A stretch of DNA of 41,207 bases, taken from NCBI GenBank assembly GCA_964228775.1, contig CAXRBW010000148.1, forward strand, positions 1 to 41,207, written 5' to 3'. This DNA comes from Pyrinomonadaceae bacterium (GTDB lineage Bacteria > Acidobacteriota > Blastocatellia > Pyrinomonadales > Pyrinomonadaceae). Positions 23,959 to 37,849 of the stretch are shown piece after piece. The notes under the pieces were generated by a model. That model was not told where the DNA came from and did no database searches. It saw only the letters and a program-made list of their open reading frames with translations. Made by a program: the position numbers and the translations under genes. How positions within the stretch are numbered: the stretch's first letter is position 1; each line of letters starts with the position of its first letter.

Positions 23959-26900
23959 ATGAAGAGACAGTCCGAAACATTCAAATCAACCGCTGCGATT
24001 CTGCGCAATGCAGAGCGTGTTTTCGTACTCACTGGTGCGGGGGTTTCTGCTGAGTCCGGGGTTCCTACATTCAAAGGAGGCGGACAATCGCAGACTTGGC
24101 AGGGTAGGTCGTTTTCATCACTTTCCTCAGTAACCCTAATCGAAGAAGATCTTCCACTTGTGTGGGAATGGTTCGATTACAGGCTTAATCTGATCAGCCA
24201 ATGTAACCCGAATGCGGCGCATGAGGTGCTCGCCAAAGCCTCCAAATACTCAAGATACAAAAGCTTTTCACTTGTAACTCAAAACATCGATGGTCTTCAT
24301 GAGTCCGCCGGCTCCGAAGGAGTCGTGGAACTACATGGGAGTATCTGGAGGGCGAGATGTCTAGGCTGTGGTGCGATTGAGCCTATCTCAGAGATTCCGA
24401 AGGAGGATCGGCCGCCTGTCTGCGGTGGGTGTGGGGATTCGATGAGGCCTGATGTAGTGCTCTTCGGGGAAACATTGTCTAGTGCTTCTTATGGACTCGC
24501 ACATGCGTACGCTGCTGCATGTGATGTCTGCTTGGTAATTGGAACTTCTGCACTAGTGTATCCGGCGGCGGCGTTGCCGCAGGCGGCTCGGCGAAATGGG
24601 GCAAAAATAATCGAGATAAATCCCGAAGAAACTGCGGTCAGTAAATACGCTGATATTTCAATAAGACGGGCGGTAGCAGAGGTTCTCCCTCAATTATTCA
24701 GTTTTATCGAAGAGGGAGAGGTTGATTCCGAGGCACTCGAAGAACCACCAGAGATAAAGGAAGCAATAAAGGCCTATCTCGAGGAAAAAGGTGGCGAGGA
24801 GCTTACAGAAGAGGAGTTTGATCTATCACCAATACTTGACGATCGGTTCAGGGAAAATAGGAAGAGACTTGTATCGTTCGCTTTTGAAGGTGGAGGCGCA
24901 GAATTATACCGCTTCACGACAGATAGGGGCGATACCTTCTTATTCGTTTCAGGGGGTAGTGTCGATACAAATAATGAAACGAACGAAGAGTGGCTTTGGT
25001 GGGGACCTGTCGTTGTCGATTCTGTAAAAGACGGTATTACGAGAATCGCAGGGGAAGATTTGATTTTTCATATCGCGCGGGCGTTCGTACATCCAGACTG
25101 CATCGACGATGTAACGGAATATGTGCAAAAGGTGTTTTCTGATCTTTCGGAAGCTTCTCTCCGTAAGTTAGCGCTGTTCAAAAAGCCGACCACTGTCGAG
25201 GAATGGTTATCTAAAGCAAATCATGATGAAGCCCTGTTCAATTCAACTGAAGAAGAAGCCTTGGAACAAACTGTGGGTGAATCGCAGGAAGAGCTTCATC
25301 AGTCGATGCAATCAGATGTGGCTGCGGAGCAAAAACCGTCAGAGCGAGCCATTTATTCCAATCGAGCTAACAGACACTTTCTCCTGTTTTGGCGCAGCAC
25401 CACCTTAATCGCCCATGAGAGATCTAAATCACTCTTGGATCTGATTTCAAGCAATCAAATTTCAGAAGTCAATAACGGTGACACCCTCTGGGTCGTAACT
25501 GTGATTGATGGCGAACTTGTACTGTGCGGAAGAATGGTTGTGGGCGAGGTTCTTGATCGTCACGGAGCAAGTGAGAGATTCGGTGACAAAGATTTATGGA
25601 AGTCAGATTGGTTTGCAGTAGCAAAAGAATCTACTCCTTGCGAGAGGCTCCGCCGAATACATCTCGGAGAAAGCGCATTCGATCTTAGATTTAATGATGA
25701 GTTTGAAGACAGATTTGTCGCAGCAGATGGGCGGATATCGAGAAGCCAGACGAGGCAGATGCGCGAACTTACGGATGGGACGGTTGAACTGCTAGAAGAA
25801 GTTTGGAAGGAGGGAGATCTGACAGAGGTTTCAGATGAAGAGATAGAGATACTTGTCAGAAATCTAGATTCTAGTTCGCCTCCGATGGTTGATAGCGCCG
25901 AAACGAATGGAAAACTGTTTGGAAAGTTTGAAGGGTGCCTTCTAGGTGGTGCTGTAGGAGATGCACTTGGAGCGGGAGTGGAATTTTCCTCGTTTGAAAA
26001 CATTTTGGAACTATACGGAGAAGATGGTGTGACTGACTATGTGCCGTGTTTTGGAAGTCTCGGCGCAGTCACCGATGAAACTCAATTATCACTTTTCACA
26101 GCCGAGGGTTTACTGAGGGCCGAAGTTCGTAGGAAAGAAAAGGGTATTTGTTATCCTGCTGCGATTGTCTACAACTCATATCTTAGGTGGTTACGAACAC
26201 AAGGGGTGGAACTCGAAGGAGATGAGTTGAGAGAGCAGGTTTATGAATCTCCGAGCTGGCTAGGGGACATATCGGCGATGAATTCAAAGCGGGCGCCCGG
26301 CAGTACCTGTTTGAGTGAACTCGCCTCAGGTGTAATGGGAACAACTGCAGAGCCATTGAATTCAAGCAAAGAAAGTGGGGGTTTGATGAGAACTGCGGTG
26401 GTTGGTCTCATAACAAACGAACCTTTTGAACTAGCCGCGGAAATTGCCGCAATAACCCATGGGCATCCCAGCGCCTTTCTAAGCGCGGCGGTAGTTGCAG
26501 AAATTATTCGTAAGCTTTTATCGGGAAACTCATTGATTGATTCAATTGAGCACACTCTTTACGAGGAACTGCCGAATCATGAAGGATATGAAGAAATCCT
26601 TTCGGTATGCCACAGGGCGCTTAGTCTTGCCAAAATGCAGACTCGAGATATTGGAACAGGTACAAATGACGTTTCAACACTCGAATTGGAGTTAAGAGAA
26701 TTGAAAGACCTCGAAATACCCTCCCATAGGTCGGTTGAATGGATTGGTAAAGGTTGGGTAGCGGAAGAAACCTTGGCGATTGCGCTCTATTGTTCAGTGG
26801 TCTACTCCAACGACTTCAGAAACGGATTAGAACTTTCCATCAACCACTCAGGCAACAGCAATGGAGTTGGTGCATTGACTGGAAATATTTTAGGTACTTG

Positions 26901-27036
26901 GTTAGGCATTGAATCAGTTCCCGATACTTGGCTGCAACGCTTGGAGTTGAAGGATGTTATTCATACCGTTTCGCGCGATCTGTATTCCTCGTTCATCGAA
27001 GAAACTGGATGGGAAGATAGATATCCGGGACATTAA
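23959..27036 (+). CDS. Multidomain protein: N-terminal sirtuin (SIR2/CobB-like, Zn-ribbon), about 400 aa unassigned central region, C-terminal ADP-ribosylglycohydrolase (ARH/DraG-fold) domain
   Basis: A single uninterrupted 1025-codon ORF. Sirtuin motifs: GAGVSAESGVPTF (aa 26-38), QNIDGLH (108-114), ELHGS (H126), CxxC x2 (C134/137/155/158), GTSALVYPAA and IEINPE. ARH motifs: LLGGAVGDALGAGVEF (aa 661-676), VTDETQL (704-710), RAPGSTCLSEL, ITHGHPS, GWVAEETLAIALY and NHSGNSNGVGALTGNILG (962-979). Confidence 0.85.
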   Translation: MKRQSETFKSTAAILRNAERVFVLTGAGVSAESGVPTFKGGGQSQTWQGRSFSSLSSVTLIEEDLPLVWEWFDYRLNLISQCNPNAAHEVLAKASKYSRYKSFSLVTQNIDGLHESAGSEGVVELHGSIWRARCLGCGAIEPISEIPKEDRPPVCGGCGDSMRPDVVLFGETLSSASYGLAHAYAAACDVCLVIGTSALVYPAAALPQAARRNGAKIIEINPEETAVSKYADISIRRAVAEVLPQLFSFIEEGEVDSEALEEPPEIKEAIKAYLEEKGGEELTEEEFDLSPILDDRFRENRKRLVSFAFEGGGAELYRFTTDRGDTFLFVSGGSVDTNNETNEEWLWWGPVVVDSVKDGITRIAGEDLIFHIARAFVHPDCIDDVTEYVQKVFSDLSEASLRKLALFKKPTTVEEWLSKANHDEALFNSTEEEALEQTVGESQEELHQSMQSDVAAEQKPSERAIYSNRANRHFLLFWRSTTLIAHERSKSLLDLISSNQISEVNNGDTLWVVTVIDGELVLCGRMVVGEVLDRHGASERFGDKDLWKSDWFAVAKESTPCERLRRIHLGESAFDLRFNDEFEDRFVAADGRISRSQTRQMRELTDGTVELLEEVWKEGDLTEVSDEEIEILVRNLDSSSPPMVDSAETNGKLFGKFEGCLLGGAVGDALGAGVEFSSFENILELYGEDGVTDYVPCFGSLGAVTDETQLSLFTAEGLLRAEVRRKEKGICYPAAIVYNSYLRWLRTQGVELEGDELREQVYESPSWLGDISAMNSKRAPGSTCLSELASGVMGTTAEPLNSSKESGGLMRTAVVGLITNEPFELAAEIAAITHGHPSAFLSAAVVAEIIRKLLSGNSLIDSIEHTLYEELPNHEGYEEILSVCHRALSLAKMQTRDIGTGTNDVSTLELELRELKDLEIPSHRSVEWIGKGWVAEETLAIALYCSVVYSNDFRNGLELSINHSGNSNGVGALTGNILGTWLGIESVPDTWLQRLELKDVIHTVSRDLYSSFIEETGWEDRYPGH
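23992..24708 (+). other. SIR2 (sirtuin) domain of the 1025-aa protein, about aa 12-250
   Basis: Collinear with E. coli CobB / class III sirtuins (from memory). It includes the Rossmann NAD-binding motifs, the catalytic His and a four-Cys zinc module. Confidence 0.85.
24709..25920 (+). other. Unassigned central region of the 1025-aa protein: two acidic linkers and two apparently globular modules
   Basis: The acidic, low-complexity stretches are aa 251-295 and aa 425-462. The modules are about aa 296-420 and about aa 470-620. The second has a beta-strand pattern faintly reminiscent of PUA-like barrels: FLLFW...GDTLWVVTVIDGELVLCGRMVVGEV. Confidence 0.5.
25921..27018 (+). other. ADP-ribosylglycohydrolase-fold domain of the 1025-aa protein, about aa 655-1020
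   Basis: See the motifs listed for the CDS. The second metal-binding motif reads GNSNG (nt 26851-26865) where I expect G-D-S/T-D-S/T. Confidence 0.8.
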
Positions 27037-27073: not shown

Positions 27074-27484
27074 ATGAGGAGTGACAAAATGTGGCGTGTT
27101 GTATGGTTTCCTTGTCAAAAAGAAGTCAGAGACGCCTATGGAGTTCCTGATTACACAGGTCCAATTCCGTACTTTCTCAGTGGAGAAACATTGGAGTTAT
27201 TTGAACAAGAAAAGAAGATTTTTCTTACTCAGGACATGTTGATTTACGGTATTTTAGCCATATTTGAAGACGCTTTAACCGGAACACCGGACAAATTTCC
27301 AGAGGTTGATCCTGTGAGTTTGGCTAGAATTGCTTTCAAATACACACACGGTTTTGAATACTCAAGCATTGCAGATCTTGCTTTGATTACTTCAGGGGCT
27401 GCATTAAAGAATTTTGGGACAGAACTCAGTGGTCGGATTCTCAGATCTGGTCTACACCTCACTAAAATCCCATATTTTGAGTAG
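27074..27484 (+). CDS. Hypothetical 136-aa soluble protein (no family recognised)
   Basis: The ATG lies 37 nt after the stop of the SIR2-ARH gene, on the same strand. No TM segment or signal peptide is present. The antisense ORF 27244-27555 is less plausible. Confidence 0.5.
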   Translation: MRSDKMWRVVWFPCQKEVRDAYGVPDYTGPIPYFLSGETLELFEQEKKIFLTQDMLIYGILAIFEDALTGTPDKFPEVDPVSLARIAFKYTHGFEYSSIADLALITSGAALKNFGTELSGRILRSGLHLTKIPYFE

Positions 27485-32251: not shown

Positions 32252-33712
32252 TTAAGAAGAGCAACTGACGACGATTCTTGGCGAACCTGTGGGGGCGGGT
32301 TTGGAATATTCCTCAAATTCGGGCTGATCAGAATATGGAATTTCGAGAATCTGGGAGAGTTTTCGAACTTCGGAATAATCTCCCTCCTGTGCCTTCTCAA
32401 TGGCTTTTTGGGCCAAGTGATTCCTCAAAATGAATTTCGGATTCACCCGCCGCATATTTTTTGGACGGTCAGTAGGAGCTTGATTAGACAGTCGGGCTCG
32501 GTAACGTGAGGCCCAAAAATCAAAGGCGTCGGGATCTACTAGCATTCCCTTTAATTGCCAATTATGAGGGTCTGTTACGGAATCGAAGTCACAAAGCCTT
32601 CGGAAGAAAATGGTGTAATCAGCGCCGCTTTGCTGAAGCTGGAGCAGAATCTCGGAAATCAACTCACTATCATCAGCTTGCTGATTGGTTAAGCCGAGTT
32701 TATTACCCATGATTGAGAAATATTCAGTCACAAATTTCTCTTCATAACCGTCGAGTATGGCAATCGCCTCTTCTCGTGAGATTAGAGACAAAAGGCTCTG
32801 GGCGAAGCACGATAAATTCCAAAGACCAATGTTCGGTTGCTGGTGGAAGGCATATCTGCCCGAATGATCCGAATGGTTGCAGATAAGTGAGGGTTCAAAT
32901 TCTTCTAAAAATCCAAACGGACCATAATCTAATGTGAGACCTGTCACAGACATGTTGTCGGTGTTCAGTACTCCGTGTGCAAATCCGACCGCTTGCCAAC
33001 GAGCAATAAGTTTTGCCGTGAGATCTACAACGGTTTCAAGAAAGGTAAGGTACCGGTCTGATCTAGAGAGAAGATTCGGAAAATGTTTTGAAATTACATG
33101 ATCGGCGAGTCGCCTCAGATTTTCGTTTTGATTTCGGGAGGCAAATAATTCAAACGTACCGAATCTTATGTGGGTTGGGGCGACTCGGGTGAGAACTGCG
33201 GCGGCTTCAAGTGTCTCTCTTTGGACAGCGTCATCAGCCTCAATTACACACAAAGCTCTTGTTGTTGGTATTCCAAGATGGTGCATGGCCTCACTGCACA
33301 GAAACTCCCTTATGCAGGAACGCAGAACAGCGCGCCCATCCCCCATACGCGAGAATGGAGTTTGACCTGAACCTTTCAGTTGTATTTCAACTGTGGATTT
33401 AGAGGGTGTTTCTAGCTCCCCGAGAAGAATCGCCCTTCCATCGCCCAACTGCGGAACCCACACACCAAACTGGTGTCCCGCATAAATTGTGGCTATAGGC
33501 TCAGAGTTTTTAAATATTCGGTTTCCAGAAAAATATTCCGTGAATTCGGTCCGTTTGAATTCTAAAGGATCAAGACCAATCAAAACCGATGTATCGCTGC
33601 TTCCAACTACTAAACGCGGATTGATAATGGGTGTTGGGGGAATTTTTTCAAAGAAATCCTTACCCAGAGAATCGTAGTTGTTGGTAAAAGAAAGTTGTTC
33701 GAGTGTTTTCAC
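32252..33712 (-). CDS. selO: Protein adenylyltransferase SelO (YdiU/UPF0061 pseudokinase-fold AMPylase)
   Basis: Motifs seen: YAGHQFGVWVPQLGDGRAILLGE, LKGSGQTPFSRMGDGRAVLRSCIREFLCSEAMHHLGIPTTRAL, and HGVLNTDNMSVTGLTLDYGPFGF. The C-terminus is ...VSCSS. Confidence 0.92.
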   Translation of the reverse strand: MKTLEQLSFTNNYDSLGKDFFEKIPPTPIINPRLVVGSSDTSVLIGLDPLEFKRTEFTEYFSGNRIFKNSEPIATIYAGHQFGVWVPQLGDGRAILLGELETPSKSTVEIQLKGSGQTPFSRMGDGRAVLRSCIREFLCSEAMHHLGIPTTRALCVIEADDAVQRETLEAAAVLTRVAPTHIRFGTFELFASRNQNENLRRLADHVISKHFPNLLSRSDRYLTFLETVVDLTAKLIARWQAVGFAHGVLNTDNMSVTGLTLDYGPFGFLEEFEPSLICNHSDHSGRYAFHQQPNIGLWNLSCFAQSLLSLISREEAIAILDGYEEKFVTEYFSIMGNKLGLTNQQADDSELISEILLQLQQSGADYTIFFRRLCDFDSVTDPHNWQLKGMLVDPDAFDFWASRYRARLSNQAPTDRPKNMRRVNPKFILRNHLAQKAIEKAQEGDYSEVRKLSQILEIPYSDQPEFEEYSKPAPTGSPRIVVSCSS

Positions 33713-36361: not shown

Positions 36362-37849
36362 GTGAGCAAGTTGATTCCAGCCGCTGCGTTGATACTGCTA
36401 GACCACGAGCAGTCCTCTGTTCTGTGGGCAAAGAGACATGAAGATATTAAGTTCCTTGGGGGATTTCATGCTTTTCCAGGTGGAAAGATTGAGTCGGAAG
36501 ATGCTGATATTCAAGTCGCGGGTCAAATGGGTGCTGACTTATCTACCTTCCTAGTCGGGGCGGTTCGGGAAACTTTTGAAGAAATCGGTATTTTGATTGT
36601 TAGGGGTGGTGAGAAACTGACAAAAGGTCAGTTGAGATCTTTACATGACGATCTGATTTCTAAACGAAGTTCATTCAAAGAGATTTTAGATAATTGGAGT
36701 CTCGAGATTAATTCGGATGATTTTGTTTATTGTGGGTATTGGCGCACACCGAATTTTTCACCAGTACGGTTTGAAACCCATTTCTTCATTACAAAATGTC
36801 CAAGGAAACAAAAACCGTATTCCGCGGTCGGTGAACTTATAGATGTCGAATTTATTAGACCTAAAGAGGCTTTATCAAAATGGAATGATGCCGAGGTGCT
36901 TGTATCACCCCCTGTTTTACTGACCCTGCAGACCCTCAGTACGGAGAGCGCCAAGCCGTTACAAATCGATAGTTTGGGGCGCGTTTTGATTGAGGAGGCA
37001 CAATCTAAAAATGGTGAAATTCATTTTATACAAATCAACTCACATGTCGTGGTCGCACCTCTAAGGACAAAAACTCTGTCACCCGCAACACACACAAATT
37101 GCTTCATTGTCGGTGGTCTGGAATTTATAGTGATCGACGCTGCGAGTAGAGAGGTTGCCGAGCAGGAAAGGCTTATTTCATTTATCGATGGAATGATTGC
37201 TTTTGGCGGGCGATGCAAAGCAATTCTAATCTCTCACTTACACCCTGATCACCATGGAGGAGAGACAGTTGTTAAAGATCATTTTAAGCAACGACACGGA
37301 ATTGATGTGCCAATTCTCGCTCACCCCAGAACCGCACAAGCATTAGAGTCAGAGGTATTGTTTGATGGCCATCTTTCGGGTGATGAAAAGCTCATTCTTA
37401 AAGATTGGTTGGGAGAGGAATTTTCTTTGGAGGTAATCCATTCTCCCGGCCATGCAAAAGGACATCTTTGTTTCTATGACCGTGGTAATGGATTTCTCAT
37501 CTCATGTGACAACGTCATCAACAATGGTTCAGTAGTCATTGCTCCGCCTGAGGGGAATATGGGTGAATATATCAGGTCATTAAATCATCTAAGGGAATTG
37601 CCAGATCTCAAGTCATTGTGTGGGTCGCATGGAACTGGGGTCTTTGATGCCCGCCGAAAAATTGATGATTACCTGTTTCATCGCTCCAAAAGGGAAAGAG
37701 AGGTTCAGGAGTTATGGGGTGAGGGATTAAGAACTGCTGAAGATATAGCCTCTAAAATATATGTCGGATTGGAAGACCGATTGATGCCATTGGCAATCAA
37801 GACTGTTGGGGCCCATTTGGAATACCTTGTCGAGAAAGGCTCTATTTAA
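36362..37849 (+). CDS. Two-domain protein: N-terminal Nudix hydrolase fused to a C-terminal MBL-fold metallo-hydrolase
   Basis: GTG start. The Nudix box-like segment is FPGGKIESED...AVRETFEEIGI, with a longer than canonical insert. The MBL motifs are ISHLHPDHHGG (HxHxDH) and HSPGHAKGH. Confidence 0.8.
   Translation: MSKLIPAAALILLDHEQSSVLWAKRHEDIKFLGGFHAFPGGKIESEDADIQVAGQMGADLSTFLVGAVRETFEEIGILIVRGGEKLTKGQLRSLHDDLISKRSSFKEILDNWSLEINSDDFVYCGYWRTPNFSPVRFETHFFITKCPRKQKPYSAVGELIDVEFIRPKEALSKWNDAEVLVSPPVLLTLQTLSTESAKPLQIDSLGRVLIEEAQSKNGEIHFIQINSHVVVAPLRTKTLSPATHTNCFIVGGLEFIVIDAASREVAEQERLISFIDGMIAFGGRCKAILISHLHPDHHGGETVVKDHFKQRHGIDVPILAHPRTAQALESEVLFDGHLSGDEKLILKDWLGEEFSLEVIHSPGHAKGHLCFYDRGNGFLISCDNVINNGSVVIAPPEGNMGEYIRSLNHLRELPDLKSLCGSHGTGVFDARRKIDDYLFHRSKREREVQELWGEGLRTAEDIASKIYVGLEDRLMPLAIKTVGAHLEYLVEKGSI

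What the first reader, a model, noticed from the sequence alone, without database searches (positions are those of the whole stretch)
26845..26865. The ARH-fold domain has an apparently degenerate second metal site (HSGNSNG in place of HSGDSDS)
**Seen in the sequence.** The C-terminal conserved block reads INHSGNSNGVGALTGNILG, with Asn966 at nt 26854-26856 and Asn968 at nt 26860-26862.

**Established knowledge, recalled from memory.**
- In this bacterial ARH subfamily the equivalent block is typically NHSGDSDSTGAI.GN.LGA.
- In DraG, ARH1 and ARH3 the two Asp residues and the following Ser/Thr of this block coordinate the binuclear Mg/Mn centre, together with the N-terminal T-D-D motif.
- Metal-ligand loss is what makes ARH2 and the crystallin J1 relatives catalytically inert.

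**Further sequence observations.**
- Both Asp are Asn here, and the S-T pair is G-V.
- The first motif is T-D-E (nt 26071-26079) instead of T-D-D.
- The SKGCGG block, as I recall it, reads SKESGG.

**Inference.** The domain may have lost hydrolase activity and been retained as an ADP-ribose or ADP-ribose-derivative binding (sensor) module. That would favour an allosterically gated sirtuin model over a simple writer/eraser model.
Basis: partly seen in the sequence, partly recalled or inferred. Interest (0 to 1): 0.65.

Follow-up and report, generated by a model that had tools for sequence, protein, structure and literature searches.

The report
Sirtuin fused to a dead ADP-ribosylhydrolase domain
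A 1025-residue bacterial protein joins an intact sirtuin to an ADP-ribosylhydrolase-fold domain that has lost three of its four metal-binding aspartates yet is still kept by selection. It is most likely a bacterial pseudo-enzyme, like vertebrate ARH2.

Summary
ORF 23959..27036 (+) encodes Sir2, then two orphan middle modules, then an ARH domain. The ARH block reads NHSGNSNGV, with Asn966 at 26854-56 and Asn968 at 26860-62.

Pairwise and profile alignments place N966/N968/G969 on human ARH3 D314/D316/T317, the three protein ligands of MgB. E707 falls on D78, an MgA ligand.

In the 120 closest homologues D707, D966 and D968 are Asp in every one. The window deviates at 16 of 88 near-invariant columns; no homologue deviates at more than 3.

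The change is specific to this lineage. The nearest same-architecture relative (P0121, 52% identity) and two further relatives (P0122, a Sir2...ARH fusion; P0123, middle+ARH) keep TDD and DSDST. All 11 members of the ≥94%-identical clade keep E/N/N/G/V.

- **Rate.** The ARH domain evolved 3-6 times faster than P0121's; the Sir2 domain did not.
- **Selection.** The domain is now under purifying selection (dN/dS 0.10-0.19, against Sir2 0.14), so it is not decaying.

Best reading: a catalytically impaired pseudo-hydrolase retained for a non-catalytic role. The proposed ADP-ribose sensor role is untested, and published ARH3 and ARH2 data partly count against it. Degenerate ARH copies recur in this family (29 of 274 domains), which lowers novelty.

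The parts
23959..27036 (+). Whole gene: 1025-aa Sir2 / orphan middle modules / ARH-fold fusion protein
   Evidence: ORF list. Pfam SIR2 130.5 bits and ADP_ribosyl_GH 193.7 bits. The identical protein occurs on at least 5 contigs.
23980..24711 (+). Sirtuin domain (aa 8-251), apparently intact
   Evidence: NCBIfam NF001753 'NAD-dependent protein deacylase' scores 251.7 bits against a cut-off of 243. GAGVS, TQNIDGLH, the HG motif and two CxxC pairs are present. Only 4 conservative deviations at 62 columns invariant in 12 relatives. dN/dS 0.14. No PADLOC defence hit.
24841..25218 (+). Middle module a (aa ~295-420), unknown fold
   Evidence: Alignable with P0121 and P0123, and a similar stretch follows the Sir2 domain of P0126. 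No Pfam hit. dN/dS 0.20-0.29 over aa 256-470. The AF2 model has low confidence.
25369..25833 (+). Middle module b (aa 471-625; HFLLFWR...SSNQ...GDTLW...WKSDWFAVA...GRISRSQTR), unknown fold, strongly constrained
   Evidence: 74 columns invariant across the window protein, P0121 and P0123. dN/dS 0.06-0.17. No Pfam hit, no significant Foldseek match. Absent from GTDB representative genomes by pattern scan.
25900..27030 (+). ARH-fold (ADP-ribosylglycohydrolase) domain, aa 648-1024
   Evidence: Pfam PF03747 covers aa 659-989 and the subfamily HMM covers 648-1024. AF2 model has pLDDT 92.5 and pTM 0.93. Foldseek probability 1.0 to MJ1187, Tri1, DraG and ARH3. dN/dS 0.10-0.19.
25981..25983 (+). Glu675, retained; proposed equivalent of the ARH3 'Glu flap' Glu41
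   Evidence: Nearly invariant E in the GDALGAPVEF motif, kept in the window. The mapping to ARH3 Glu41 was not aligned here; it is inferred from motif position, with the role of Glu41 taken from PMC7050489.
26071..26079 (+). Metal motif 1: T705-D706-E707 (family consensus T-D-D; ARH3 T76-D77-D78 are MgA ligands)
   Evidence: Sequence. D707 is Asp in 120/120 homologues. ARH3 ligand list from PMC8141533 Table 2.
26365..26382 (+). Substrate-loop motif SKESGG (family SKGCGG); E805 and S806 replace an invariant Gly and Cys
   Evidence: G805 and C806 are 120/120 in homologues. The loop aligns to DraG AGNGAAMR and to ARH3 S148-Y149-G150-N151 by the stretch offsets. S148 coordinates adenine (PMC8319183).
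26854..26868 (+). Metal motif 2: N966-S967-N968-G969-V970 (family D-S-D-S-T). The positions equal ARH3 D314 (MgB), D316 (bridging ligand) and T317 (MgB)
   Evidence: ARH3 ligands from PMC8141533. Invariant within the 11-member 90% cluster.

Best explanation
The C-terminal domain is a genuine ARH-fold domain. In this lineage, probably an uncultured Acidobacteriota clade, it has lost its binuclear metal centre.

**What is lost.**
- All three protein ligands of metal site B are replaced: D to N966, the bridging D to N968, and S/T to G969.
- One ligand of site A is altered: D to E707.
- The adjacent substrate loop is also changed: G805E and C806S.

**Inferred history.**
- The ancestor of the fusion carried a canonical, presumably active hydrolase next to a CobB-like deacylase sirtuin.
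- The obvious ancestral logic is that the ARH domain removes the sirtuin's product, O-acyl-ADP-ribose, or sirtuin-linked ADP-ribosyl marks. ARH3 does this for O-acetyl-ADP-ribose.
- In the window's lineage the hydrolase chemistry was lost during a burst of domain-specific sequence change.
- The domain was then fixed under purifying selection as a non-catalytic module, that is, a pseudoenzyme.

**Current role.** This is inferred, not shown. It may be ligand or target binding, or a structural or regulatory partner of the still-intact sirtuin.

**Shown:** residue equivalence, family invariance, lineage specificity, rate acceleration, and present purifying selection.
**Inferred:** loss of activity, and the nature of the retained role.
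For: - **Fold and family.** Pfam 193.7 bits. AF2 pLDDT 92.5. Foldseek probability 1.0 to ARH structures.
- **Equivalence to metal ligands.**, with ARH3 ligand tables from PMC8141533.
- **Family invariance.** D707, D966 and D968 are Asp in 120/120 homologues. The window deviates at 16 of 88 columns that are at least 97% conserved; the maximum for any homologue is 3.
- **Lineage specificity.** P0121 (same architecture, 52% identity over aa 4-1024), P0122 and P0123 all have ITDDTQ or VTDDTQ plus NHSGDSDST.
- **Domain-specific acceleration (Tajima test).** ARH: 61-83 unique changes in the window protein against 13-25 in P0121, p from 3e-6 to 9e-13. Sir2: 25-33 against 21-23, not significant.
- **Retention.** E/N/N/G/V are invariant in the 11-member cluster. 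ARH dN/dS is 0.10-0.19 in three pairwise comparisons, similar to Sir2 at 0.14.
- **Sirtuin intact.**
- **Functional precedent.** Alanine substitutions of ARH3 D77, D78, D314 and D316 impair hydrolysis, and D314A or D314E removes MgB (PMC8141533). D314A and T317A are inactive (PMC5727137). ARH2/ADPRHL1 lost the same three of four Asp and is inactive (PMC7390403).
Against: - No biochemical measurement exists.
- Asn carbonyl oxygens can ligate Mg2+ or Mn2+. Glu707 and the new Glu805 lie in the same loop as DraG's catalytic Asp97 and might rebuild a metal site.
- E707 co-occurs with N966 in three mutually distant lineages: the window protein, P0235 and P0200 (40-43% identity to each other). This looks like coordinated remodelling, not random loss.
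- Purifying selection is equally compatible with a changed but real catalytic activity.
- The Tajima test assumes the chosen proteins are true outgroups. Domain shuffling would weaken it.
Confidence: 0.6

Rival explanations
1. Remodelled but still active enzyme. The site has been rebuilt, for example as a mononuclear or Asn/Glu-ligated metal centre, or as a metal-independent mechanism using the retained Glu675 and the TH motif. It acts on a different ADP-ribose derivative or glycosidic substrate.
For: - The same D-to-E (motif 1) plus D-to-N (motif 2) combination recurs in distant stand-alone members P0235 (SDE...GNSNST) and P0200 (TDE...GNSDGT).
- dN/dS of 0.10-0.19 shows strong constraint.
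- Glu675, D706, S803, the ITHGHP motif and N962-H963 are retained.
- A new acidic residue, E805, sits two positions from the DraG D97-equivalent.
Against: - The bridging carboxylate (ARH3 D316) cannot be replaced functionally by an amide.
- Even the conservative D314E removes MgB in ARH3 (PMC8141533).
- All characterised ARH enzymes need the binuclear centre (PMC7050489).
- 16 of 88 near-invariant positions have changed, and P0235, P0200 and P0187 are likewise long-branch outliers. That pattern fits release from catalytic constraint.
Confidence: 0.25
2. The dead ARH domain binds ADP-ribose or O-acyl-ADP-ribose and allosterically gates the fused sirtuin. This is a sub-case of the pseudoenzyme explanation.
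For: - The fusion to a deacylase-type sirtuin, whose product is O-acyl-ADP-ribose (PMC7050489).
- ARH3 D314A and T317A keep binding to mono-ADP-ribosylated peptide while inactive (PMC5727137).
- The domain is retained under selection.
Against: - ARH3 D314A binds ADP-ribose 44-fold more weakly, mimicking the metal-free state (PMC8141533).
- ADP cannot be docked into the ARH2 model (PMC7390403).
- G805E puts a negative, bulky side chain in the loop that aligns with the ARH3 adenine/diphosphate loop.
- There is no evidence of inter-domain communication.
Confidence: 0.2
3. A decaying relic. The ARH domain is a non-functional remnant on its way to loss, or the substitutions are assembly or sequencing artefacts.
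For: Accelerated evolution and loss of invariant residues.
Against: - The reading frame is intact.
- The fold is predicted with high confidence.
- ARH dN/dS is 0.10-0.19, with 22 to 60.5 synonymous differences per pair.
- The substitutions are identical in 11 cluster members from independent assemblies.
Confidence: 0.03

Closest known systems
Vertebrate ARH2 / ADPRHL1 (ARH-family pseudoenzyme)
   Same: It has the ARH fold. It lost the same three of the four critical metal-binding aspartates and kept only the first Asp of the N-terminal pair: ADPRH D55 is kept while D56, D302 and D304 are lost. The window keeps D706 and has lost D707, D966 and D968 (PMC7390403). ARH2 is retained and biologically essential despite having no hydrolase activity.
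   Different: The origin is independent. The window's domain belongs to a bacterial subfamily, and its best PDB sequence matches are T. thermophilus ARH and DraG. The replacement residues differ: E/N/N here against N/E/A in ARH2. ARH2 is a stand-alone cardiac protein, whereas this domain is the C-terminal part of a sirtuin fusion.
Human ARH3 (ADPRS), which hydrolyses O-acetyl-ADP-ribose, Ser-ADP-ribose and PAR
   Same: Same fold (Foldseek probability 1.0). There is a functional link to sirtuins, because ARH3 hydrolyses the sirtuin product O-acetyl-ADP-ribose (PMC7050489). The motif positions are directly alignable.
   Different: ARH3 has an intact T76-D77-D78 / D314-x-D316-T317 binuclear Mg site. 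The window has T-D-E / N-x-N-G. ARH3 mutants at these positions are inactive (PMC8141533, PMC5727137).
Canonical Sir2...ARH fusions found here (P0121, 1020 aa; P0122, 1887 aa with a PTP-type phosphatase and TPRs)
   Same: P0121 has the same Sir2 / middle-a / middle-b / ARH architecture and is collinear over aa 4-1024 at 52% identity.
   Different: Their ARH domains keep every metal ligand and the SKGCGG loop. The gene neighbourhoods are not conserved.
ARG (ARH)-centred bacterial systems with rhodanese-phosphatase partners (Aravind group, PMC9503650 section 3.8)
   Same: Probably the same ARH subfamily. Several close ARH homologues, and P0122, carry the PTP-SAK / Tc-R-P phosphatase domains.
   Different: Those systems are predicted to be active erasers of viral ADP-ribosylation and are regulated by Nudix or WYL transcription factors. 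The window locus has no phosphatase, Nudix/WYL regulator or defence-island context.
SirTM / macrodomain writer-eraser pairs
   Same: A sirtuin is coupled to an ADP-ribose-processing domain.
   Different: The partner here has an ARH fold, not a macrodomain. The sirtuin scores as a CobB-like deacylase, not as SirTM. The 'eraser' lacks its catalytic metal site.

Membership tests
ADP-ribosylglycohydrolase (ARH) fold superfamily, Pfam PF03747 | Significant match to the family HMM | tested here: met
   193.7 bits against a gathering score of 26.2, over aa 659-989.
ADP-ribosylglycohydrolase (ARH) fold superfamily, Pfam PF03747 | All-alpha ARH fold | tested here: met
   AF2 pLDDT 92.5 and pTM 0.93. 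Foldseek probability 1.00, with target-normalised TM 0.62-0.79 to 1T5J, 6DRE, 2CWC, 3O5T and ARH3.
Catalytically active ARH hydrolases (DraG / ARH1 / ARH3 / Tri1 type) | Binuclear metal centre ligands: T-D-D in the N-terminal block and D-x-D-[ST] in the C-terminal block | tested here: not met
   The window has T-D-E and N-x-N-G. The ligand definition comes from PMC8141533 and PMC7050489.
Catalytically active ARH hydrolases (DraG / ARH1 / ARH3 / Tri1 type) | Mg/Mn-dependent hydrolysis of an ADP-ribosyl linkage | not testable with these tools
   Requires an enzyme assay.
ARH-fold pseudoenzymes (functional class exemplified by ARH2/ADPRHL1) | ARH fold with loss of metal-coordinating aspartates, yet retained under selection | tested here: met
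   Three of four Asp are lost. dN/dS is 0.10-0.19. Compare PMC7390403.
ARH-fold pseudoenzymes (functional class exemplified by ARH2/ADPRHL1) | Demonstrated absence of hydrolase activity | not testable with these tools
   Requires an enzyme assay.
ARH2/ADPRHL1 orthologous group | Orthology to vertebrate ADPRHL1 | tested here: not met
   The closest relatives are bacterial subfamily members at 42-57% identity. ARH1-type PDB chains match the subfamily profile only at about 1e-19. The loss occurred within an Acidobacteriota-like lineage.
CobB-like NAD-dependent protein deacylase sirtuins | NCBIfam subfamily model above its curated cut-off; catalytic His, GAGxS, TQNID and Cys4 zinc motifs | tested here: met
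   NF001753 scores 251.7 bits against a cut-off of 243. The motifs are visible in the alignment, with only 4 conservative deviations at 62 invariant columns.
Anti-phage Sir2 NADase effectors (ThsA, DSR, SIR2-HerA, pAgo-Sir2) | Match to PADLOC defence models and a defence-type partner gene | tested here: not met
   No PADLOC hit for the protein. The neighbours are ordinary chromosomal genes.

The most novel reading that the evidence does not exclude
The dead ARH domain has become a receptor for the sirtuin's own product (O-acyl-ADP-ribose or ADP-ribose) or for ADP-ribosylated targets. This would give a self-contained, product-gated or target-recruited bacterial sirtuin. The recurring TDE/NxN signature (window protein, P0235, P0200) would then mark a convergently evolved ligand-sensing form of the ARH fold.
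Probability: 0.15. Interest if true: 0.65.

Novelty: new variant of a known kind. Interest (0 to 1): 0.4.

Why it matters
ARH-fold pseudoenzymes are so far discussed mainly for vertebrate ARH2 and the crystallin-type relatives.

Here a bacterial lineage shows the same three-of-four-aspartate loss. It happened recently inside a sirtuin fusion whose sister proteins are still canonical, so both an 'active' and a 'dead' version exist in the same architecture. That makes a clean natural experiment for two questions:
- What does an ARH domain do for a sirtuin?
- What can the ARH fold do without its metals?

There is also a practical point. 29 of 274 sampled ARH domains, and 15 of 16 multi-ARH proteins, carry degenerate sites. 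Automatic 'ADP-ribosylglycohydrolase' annotation therefore overstates enzymatic capacity in this family.

Tried and rejected
- **Full-length homologue search** timed out.
- **Middle region search** in the word-indexed database found nothing. Relatives appeared only in the exhaustive representative search.
- **A 41-aa fragment around NSNGV**, meant to enrich for NxN variants, found no candidate sharing three 5-mers.
- **Two scans of GTDB representative genomes** (protein query, then an alignment of middle module b) found no relative. The metagenome scan found only one near-identical locus, L008. The fusion family is therefore rare, and intermediates that would date the D-to-N changes were not found.
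- **Middle region structure.** The AF2 model had low confidence (pLDDT 55). Its Foldseek matches were insignificant (no E <= 0.001). I discarded them and assign no fold.
- **Defence-system reading** is rejected: there is no PADLOC hit and the context is ordinary chromosomal.
- **Sequencing error or pseudogene reading** is rejected.
- **Literature searches** for a described Sir2-ARH fusion or a 'Swiss Army Knife' ARH protein found no direct description. One paper, PMC1622773, was not held.
- **3D clustering of the 16 deviant positions** could not be computed, because model coordinates are not exposed to scripts.
Full report
**1. The observation**

The ORF at 23959..27036 (+) encodes 1025 aa.
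- Asn966 is AAC at 26854-26856 and Asn968 is AAT at 26860-26862.
- The first motif T705-D706-E707 is acc-gat-gaa at 26071-26079.
- SKESGG is aa 803-808 at 26365-26382.

**2. What the protein is**

- **Domains.** Pfam finds SIR2 (aa 26-202, 130.5 bits) and ADP_ribosyl_GH (aa 659-989, 193.7 bits).
- **Sirtuin type.** NCBIfam places the N-terminus in the 'NAD-dependent protein deacylase' subfamily NF001753, above its curated cut-off (251.7 against 243).
- **Not a defence protein.** There is no PADLOC match.
- **Middle region.** Between the two domains lie about 400 residues with no Pfam family. The word-indexed search found no homologues.
- **Relatives.** The exhaustive representative search found three relatives that share parts of the architecture:
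  - P0121, 1020 aa, 52% identity over aa 4-1024, with the same architecture.
  - P0123, 710 aa, middle plus ARH.
  - P0122, 1887 aa, Sir2 + PTP-type phosphatase + TPR + ARH.
- **Middle modules.** The three-way alignment shows two conserved modules, aa ~295-420 and aa ~471-625. Their fold stayed unidentified. The AF2 model had pLDDT 55 and no Foldseek hit was significant.
- **Genomic setting.** The window is ordinary chromosome. It carries isocitrate dehydrogenase, purEK, transketolase, SelO, trmFO and similar genes. It has no macrodomain and no second ARH gene.
- **Organism.** A transketolase at least 90% identical is labelled 'MAG: Acidobacteriota bacterium'. Several of the best ARH hits are also from Acidobacteriota.

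**3. Are N966 and N968 really metal-ligand positions?**

Yes.
- phmmer against PDB sequences aligns N-S-N-G-V to GDADTV of T. thermophilus ARH, GDADTT of both DraG proteins and GDTDSL of MJ1187.
- A 50-sequence subfamily profile aligns its GDSDST to DraG GDADTT.
- An 83-aa fragment aligns over an equal-length stretch (53/53) to human ARH3. The offsets from two constructs of different length agree. They give N966=D314, N968=D316 and G969=T317.
- The ARH-domain model is confident (pLDDT 92.5, pTM 0.93). It matches ARH structures with Foldseek probability 1.0.

In human ARH3 (PMC8141533 Table 2) the ligands are:

| Metal | Protein ligands |
|---|---|
| MgA | T76, D77, D78, D316 |
| MgB | D314, D316, T317 |

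So the window has replaced all three protein ligands of MgB, including the bridging carboxylate. It has also changed one MgA ligand (D78 to E707). 'Degenerate second metal site' is an accurate description.

**4. How unusual is it within the family?**

- **Invariance.** In the 120 best homologues (42-51% identity), D707, D966 and D968 are Asp in 120/120. S969 is Ser in 119/120 and T970 is Thr in 117/120.
- **Overall deviation.** The window deviates at 16 of 88 columns that are at least 97% conserved. The worst homologue deviates at 3, and the median is 0.
- **Other changed invariants.** These are G805E and C806S (the SKGCGG loop), P814V, G839A and G844A.
- **Loop mapping.** By the stretch offsets, S803-K804-E805-S806 correspond to ARH3 S148-Y149-G150-N151. 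S148 coordinates adenine (PMC8319183). The substrate loop is therefore altered as well as the metal site.

**5. Is N-x-N conserved in orthologues?**

Only in the immediate clade.
- P0121, P0122 and P0123 all carry [IV]TDDTQ and NHSGDSDST.
- The window protein's 90% cluster has 11 members at 93.9-99.5% identity, from independent assemblies. E707, N966, N968, G969 and V970 are invariant in all that cover them.

The loss is therefore derived and specific to this lineage. It post-dates the fusion.

**6. Rates and selection**

Tajima relative-rate tests of the window protein against P0121:

| Domain | Unique changes, window protein | Unique changes, P0121 | Result |
|---|---|---|---|
| ARH (five outgroups) | 61-83 | 13-25 | p = 3e-6 to 9e-13 |
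| Sir2 (five outgroups) | 25-33 | 21-23 | not significant |
| Middle region | 67 | 29 | p = 1e-4 |

- Identity matrices agree with these tests.
- The Sir2 domain deviates at only 4 of 62 columns invariant in relatives, and all 4 changes are conservative.
- **Caveat.** The test assumes true outgroups. The near star-like Sir2 distances among the same proteins argue that rate, not topology, explains the ARH asymmetry.

Present-day constraint was measured by Nei-Gojobori dN/dS. The comparison used the window, L005 (93.9% aa identity) and L008 (95.8%):

| Region | dN/dS |
|---|---|
| ARH | 0.10-0.19 |
| Sir2 | 0.14 |
| Middle module b | 0.06-0.17 |
| aa 256-470 (linker + middle module a) | 0.20-0.29 |

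The ARH domain went through an episode of rapid change that removed its catalytic signature. It is now conserved as strongly as the intact sirtuin. It is not a decaying relic.

**7. What the substitutions should do**

This step is inference from published work.
- All characterised ARH enzymes need the binuclear centre (PMC7050489).
- Alanine mutants of ARH3 D77, D78, D314 and D316 show impaired PAR hydrolysis.
- D314A, and even D314E, lose MgB. D314A binds ADP-ribose 44-fold more weakly (PMC8141533).
- D314A and T317A are inactive but still pull down mono-ADP-ribosylated peptide (PMC5727137).
- ARH2/ADPRHL1 kept only the first of the four critical aspartates (N58, E302 and A304 replace the others). 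It has no activity, and ADP cannot be docked into its model (PMC7390403).

The window shows the same three-of-four pattern: D706 is kept, with E707, N966 and N968 replacing the rest.

Loss of canonical hydrolase activity is therefore likely. Retention of ADP-ribose binding is uncertain.

**8. A complication**

Degenerate sites recur in this family.
- Among 274 complete ARH domains from the two searches, 29 are non-canonical.
- 15 of 16 proteins with two or more ARH domains contain a degenerate copy.
- Seven single-domain proteins besides the window protein are degenerate.
- Three mutually distant lineages share D-to-E in motif 1 together with D-to-N at position 966. These are the window protein, P0235 and P0200, at 40-43% identity to each other and no closer to each other than to canonical members.

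This lowers novelty, because dead ARH modules are common. It also keeps open a coordinated remodelling of the site as opposed to random loss. For that reason I give the 'still active, altered chemistry' rival 0.25.

**9. Verdict**

- The inference of lost hydrolase chemistry is well supported by alignment, family statistics, orthologue comparison and literature precedent.
- Retention under selection is shown.
- The specific sensor / allosteric-gate model is an untested sub-hypothesis with mixed precedent.
- Closest known analogue by function is the ARH2/ADPRHL1 pseudoenzyme. This is an independent origin, not orthology.
- By family, it is a divergent member of a bacterial ARH subfamily that is otherwise canonical and is often fused to PTP-type phosphatases (PMC9503650).
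- I found no description of a Sir2-ARH fusion, active or dead, in the searchable literature. That is absence of evidence within that library only.

Noticed in passing
window 25369-25833 (aa 471-625 of the fusion): An orphan module (HFLLFWR...SSNQ...GDTLW...GRMxVGEV...WKSDWFAVA...GRISRSQTRxMR) is the most constrained part of the protein, with dN/dS 0.06-0.17. It has no Pfam family and no significant structural match. It is found only in the window protein's clade, P0121 and P0123, and is absent from GTDB representative genomes by pattern scan.
   Followed up: partly
window 24841-25218 (aa ~295-420): A second orphan module (FEGGGAELYRF...FLFVSG...W.WGP) is also present directly after the Sir2 domain of the 574-aa protein P0126. 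It appears to travel with this sirtuin subfamily independently of the ARH domain.
   Followed up: no
window 27074-27484 (+), 38 nt downstream of the fusion gene: A 136-aa ORF with no Pfam family is conserved in position in L005 and is under purifying selection (dN/dS 0.21). It is followed by a 183-aa ORF with no Pfam hit (dN/dS 0.14), a 274-aa ORF, and a convergent 1055-aa TPR-CHAT protein. This block is conserved in the clade but absent next to the P0121 orthologue.
   Followed up: partly
P0124, P0125, P0128, P0129, P0177, P0212 and others: There are large proteins with two or three tandem ARH domains. In 15 of 16 of them, at least one copy has a degenerate metal site (for example P0129 NHSGNSSAT, or P0177 with T-A-A ... 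N-x-S-A-T at the ligand columns). This suggests that active/dead ARH pairing is a recurrent design.
   Followed up: partly
P0235 (360 aa), P0200 (342 aa), P0187 (334 aa): These stand-alone ARH proteins have the same or a similar altered signature: SDE+GNSNST, TDE+GNSDGT and TDD+GESNSV. They are only 40-43% identical to the window protein and to each other. This looks like convergent D-to-E / D-to-N remodelling.
   Followed up: partly
P0122 (1887 aa): A giant relative combines Sir2, a PTP/DSP-type phosphatase (PTP-SAK, Tc-R-P), many TPR repeats and a canonical ARH domain in one polypeptide.
   Followed up: no
L006 3890-4990 (-), upstream of P0121: The canonical orthologue P0121 has a separate stand-alone 366-aa ARH gene, divergently oriented, about 500 bp upstream. 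A zf-LITAF-like ORF lies in between. RmuC and a UvrD/PD-(D/E)XK helicase-nuclease lie downstream.
   Followed up: no
window 36362-37849 (+): A 495-aa fusion of an N-terminal NUDIX domain with a metallo-beta-lactamase domain and a winged helix. It is possibly another nucleotide-diphosphate-processing enzyme, about 9 kb from the sirtuin gene.
   Followed up: no
window 32252-33712 (-): A SelO protein adenylyltransferase (469 bits) lies immediately beside the TPR-CHAT gene.
   Followed up: no
The word-indexed protein search never returned the window protein's own 90% cluster, although that cluster exists in the collection. 'No close homologue' from that tool should not be read as absence.
   Followed up: yes
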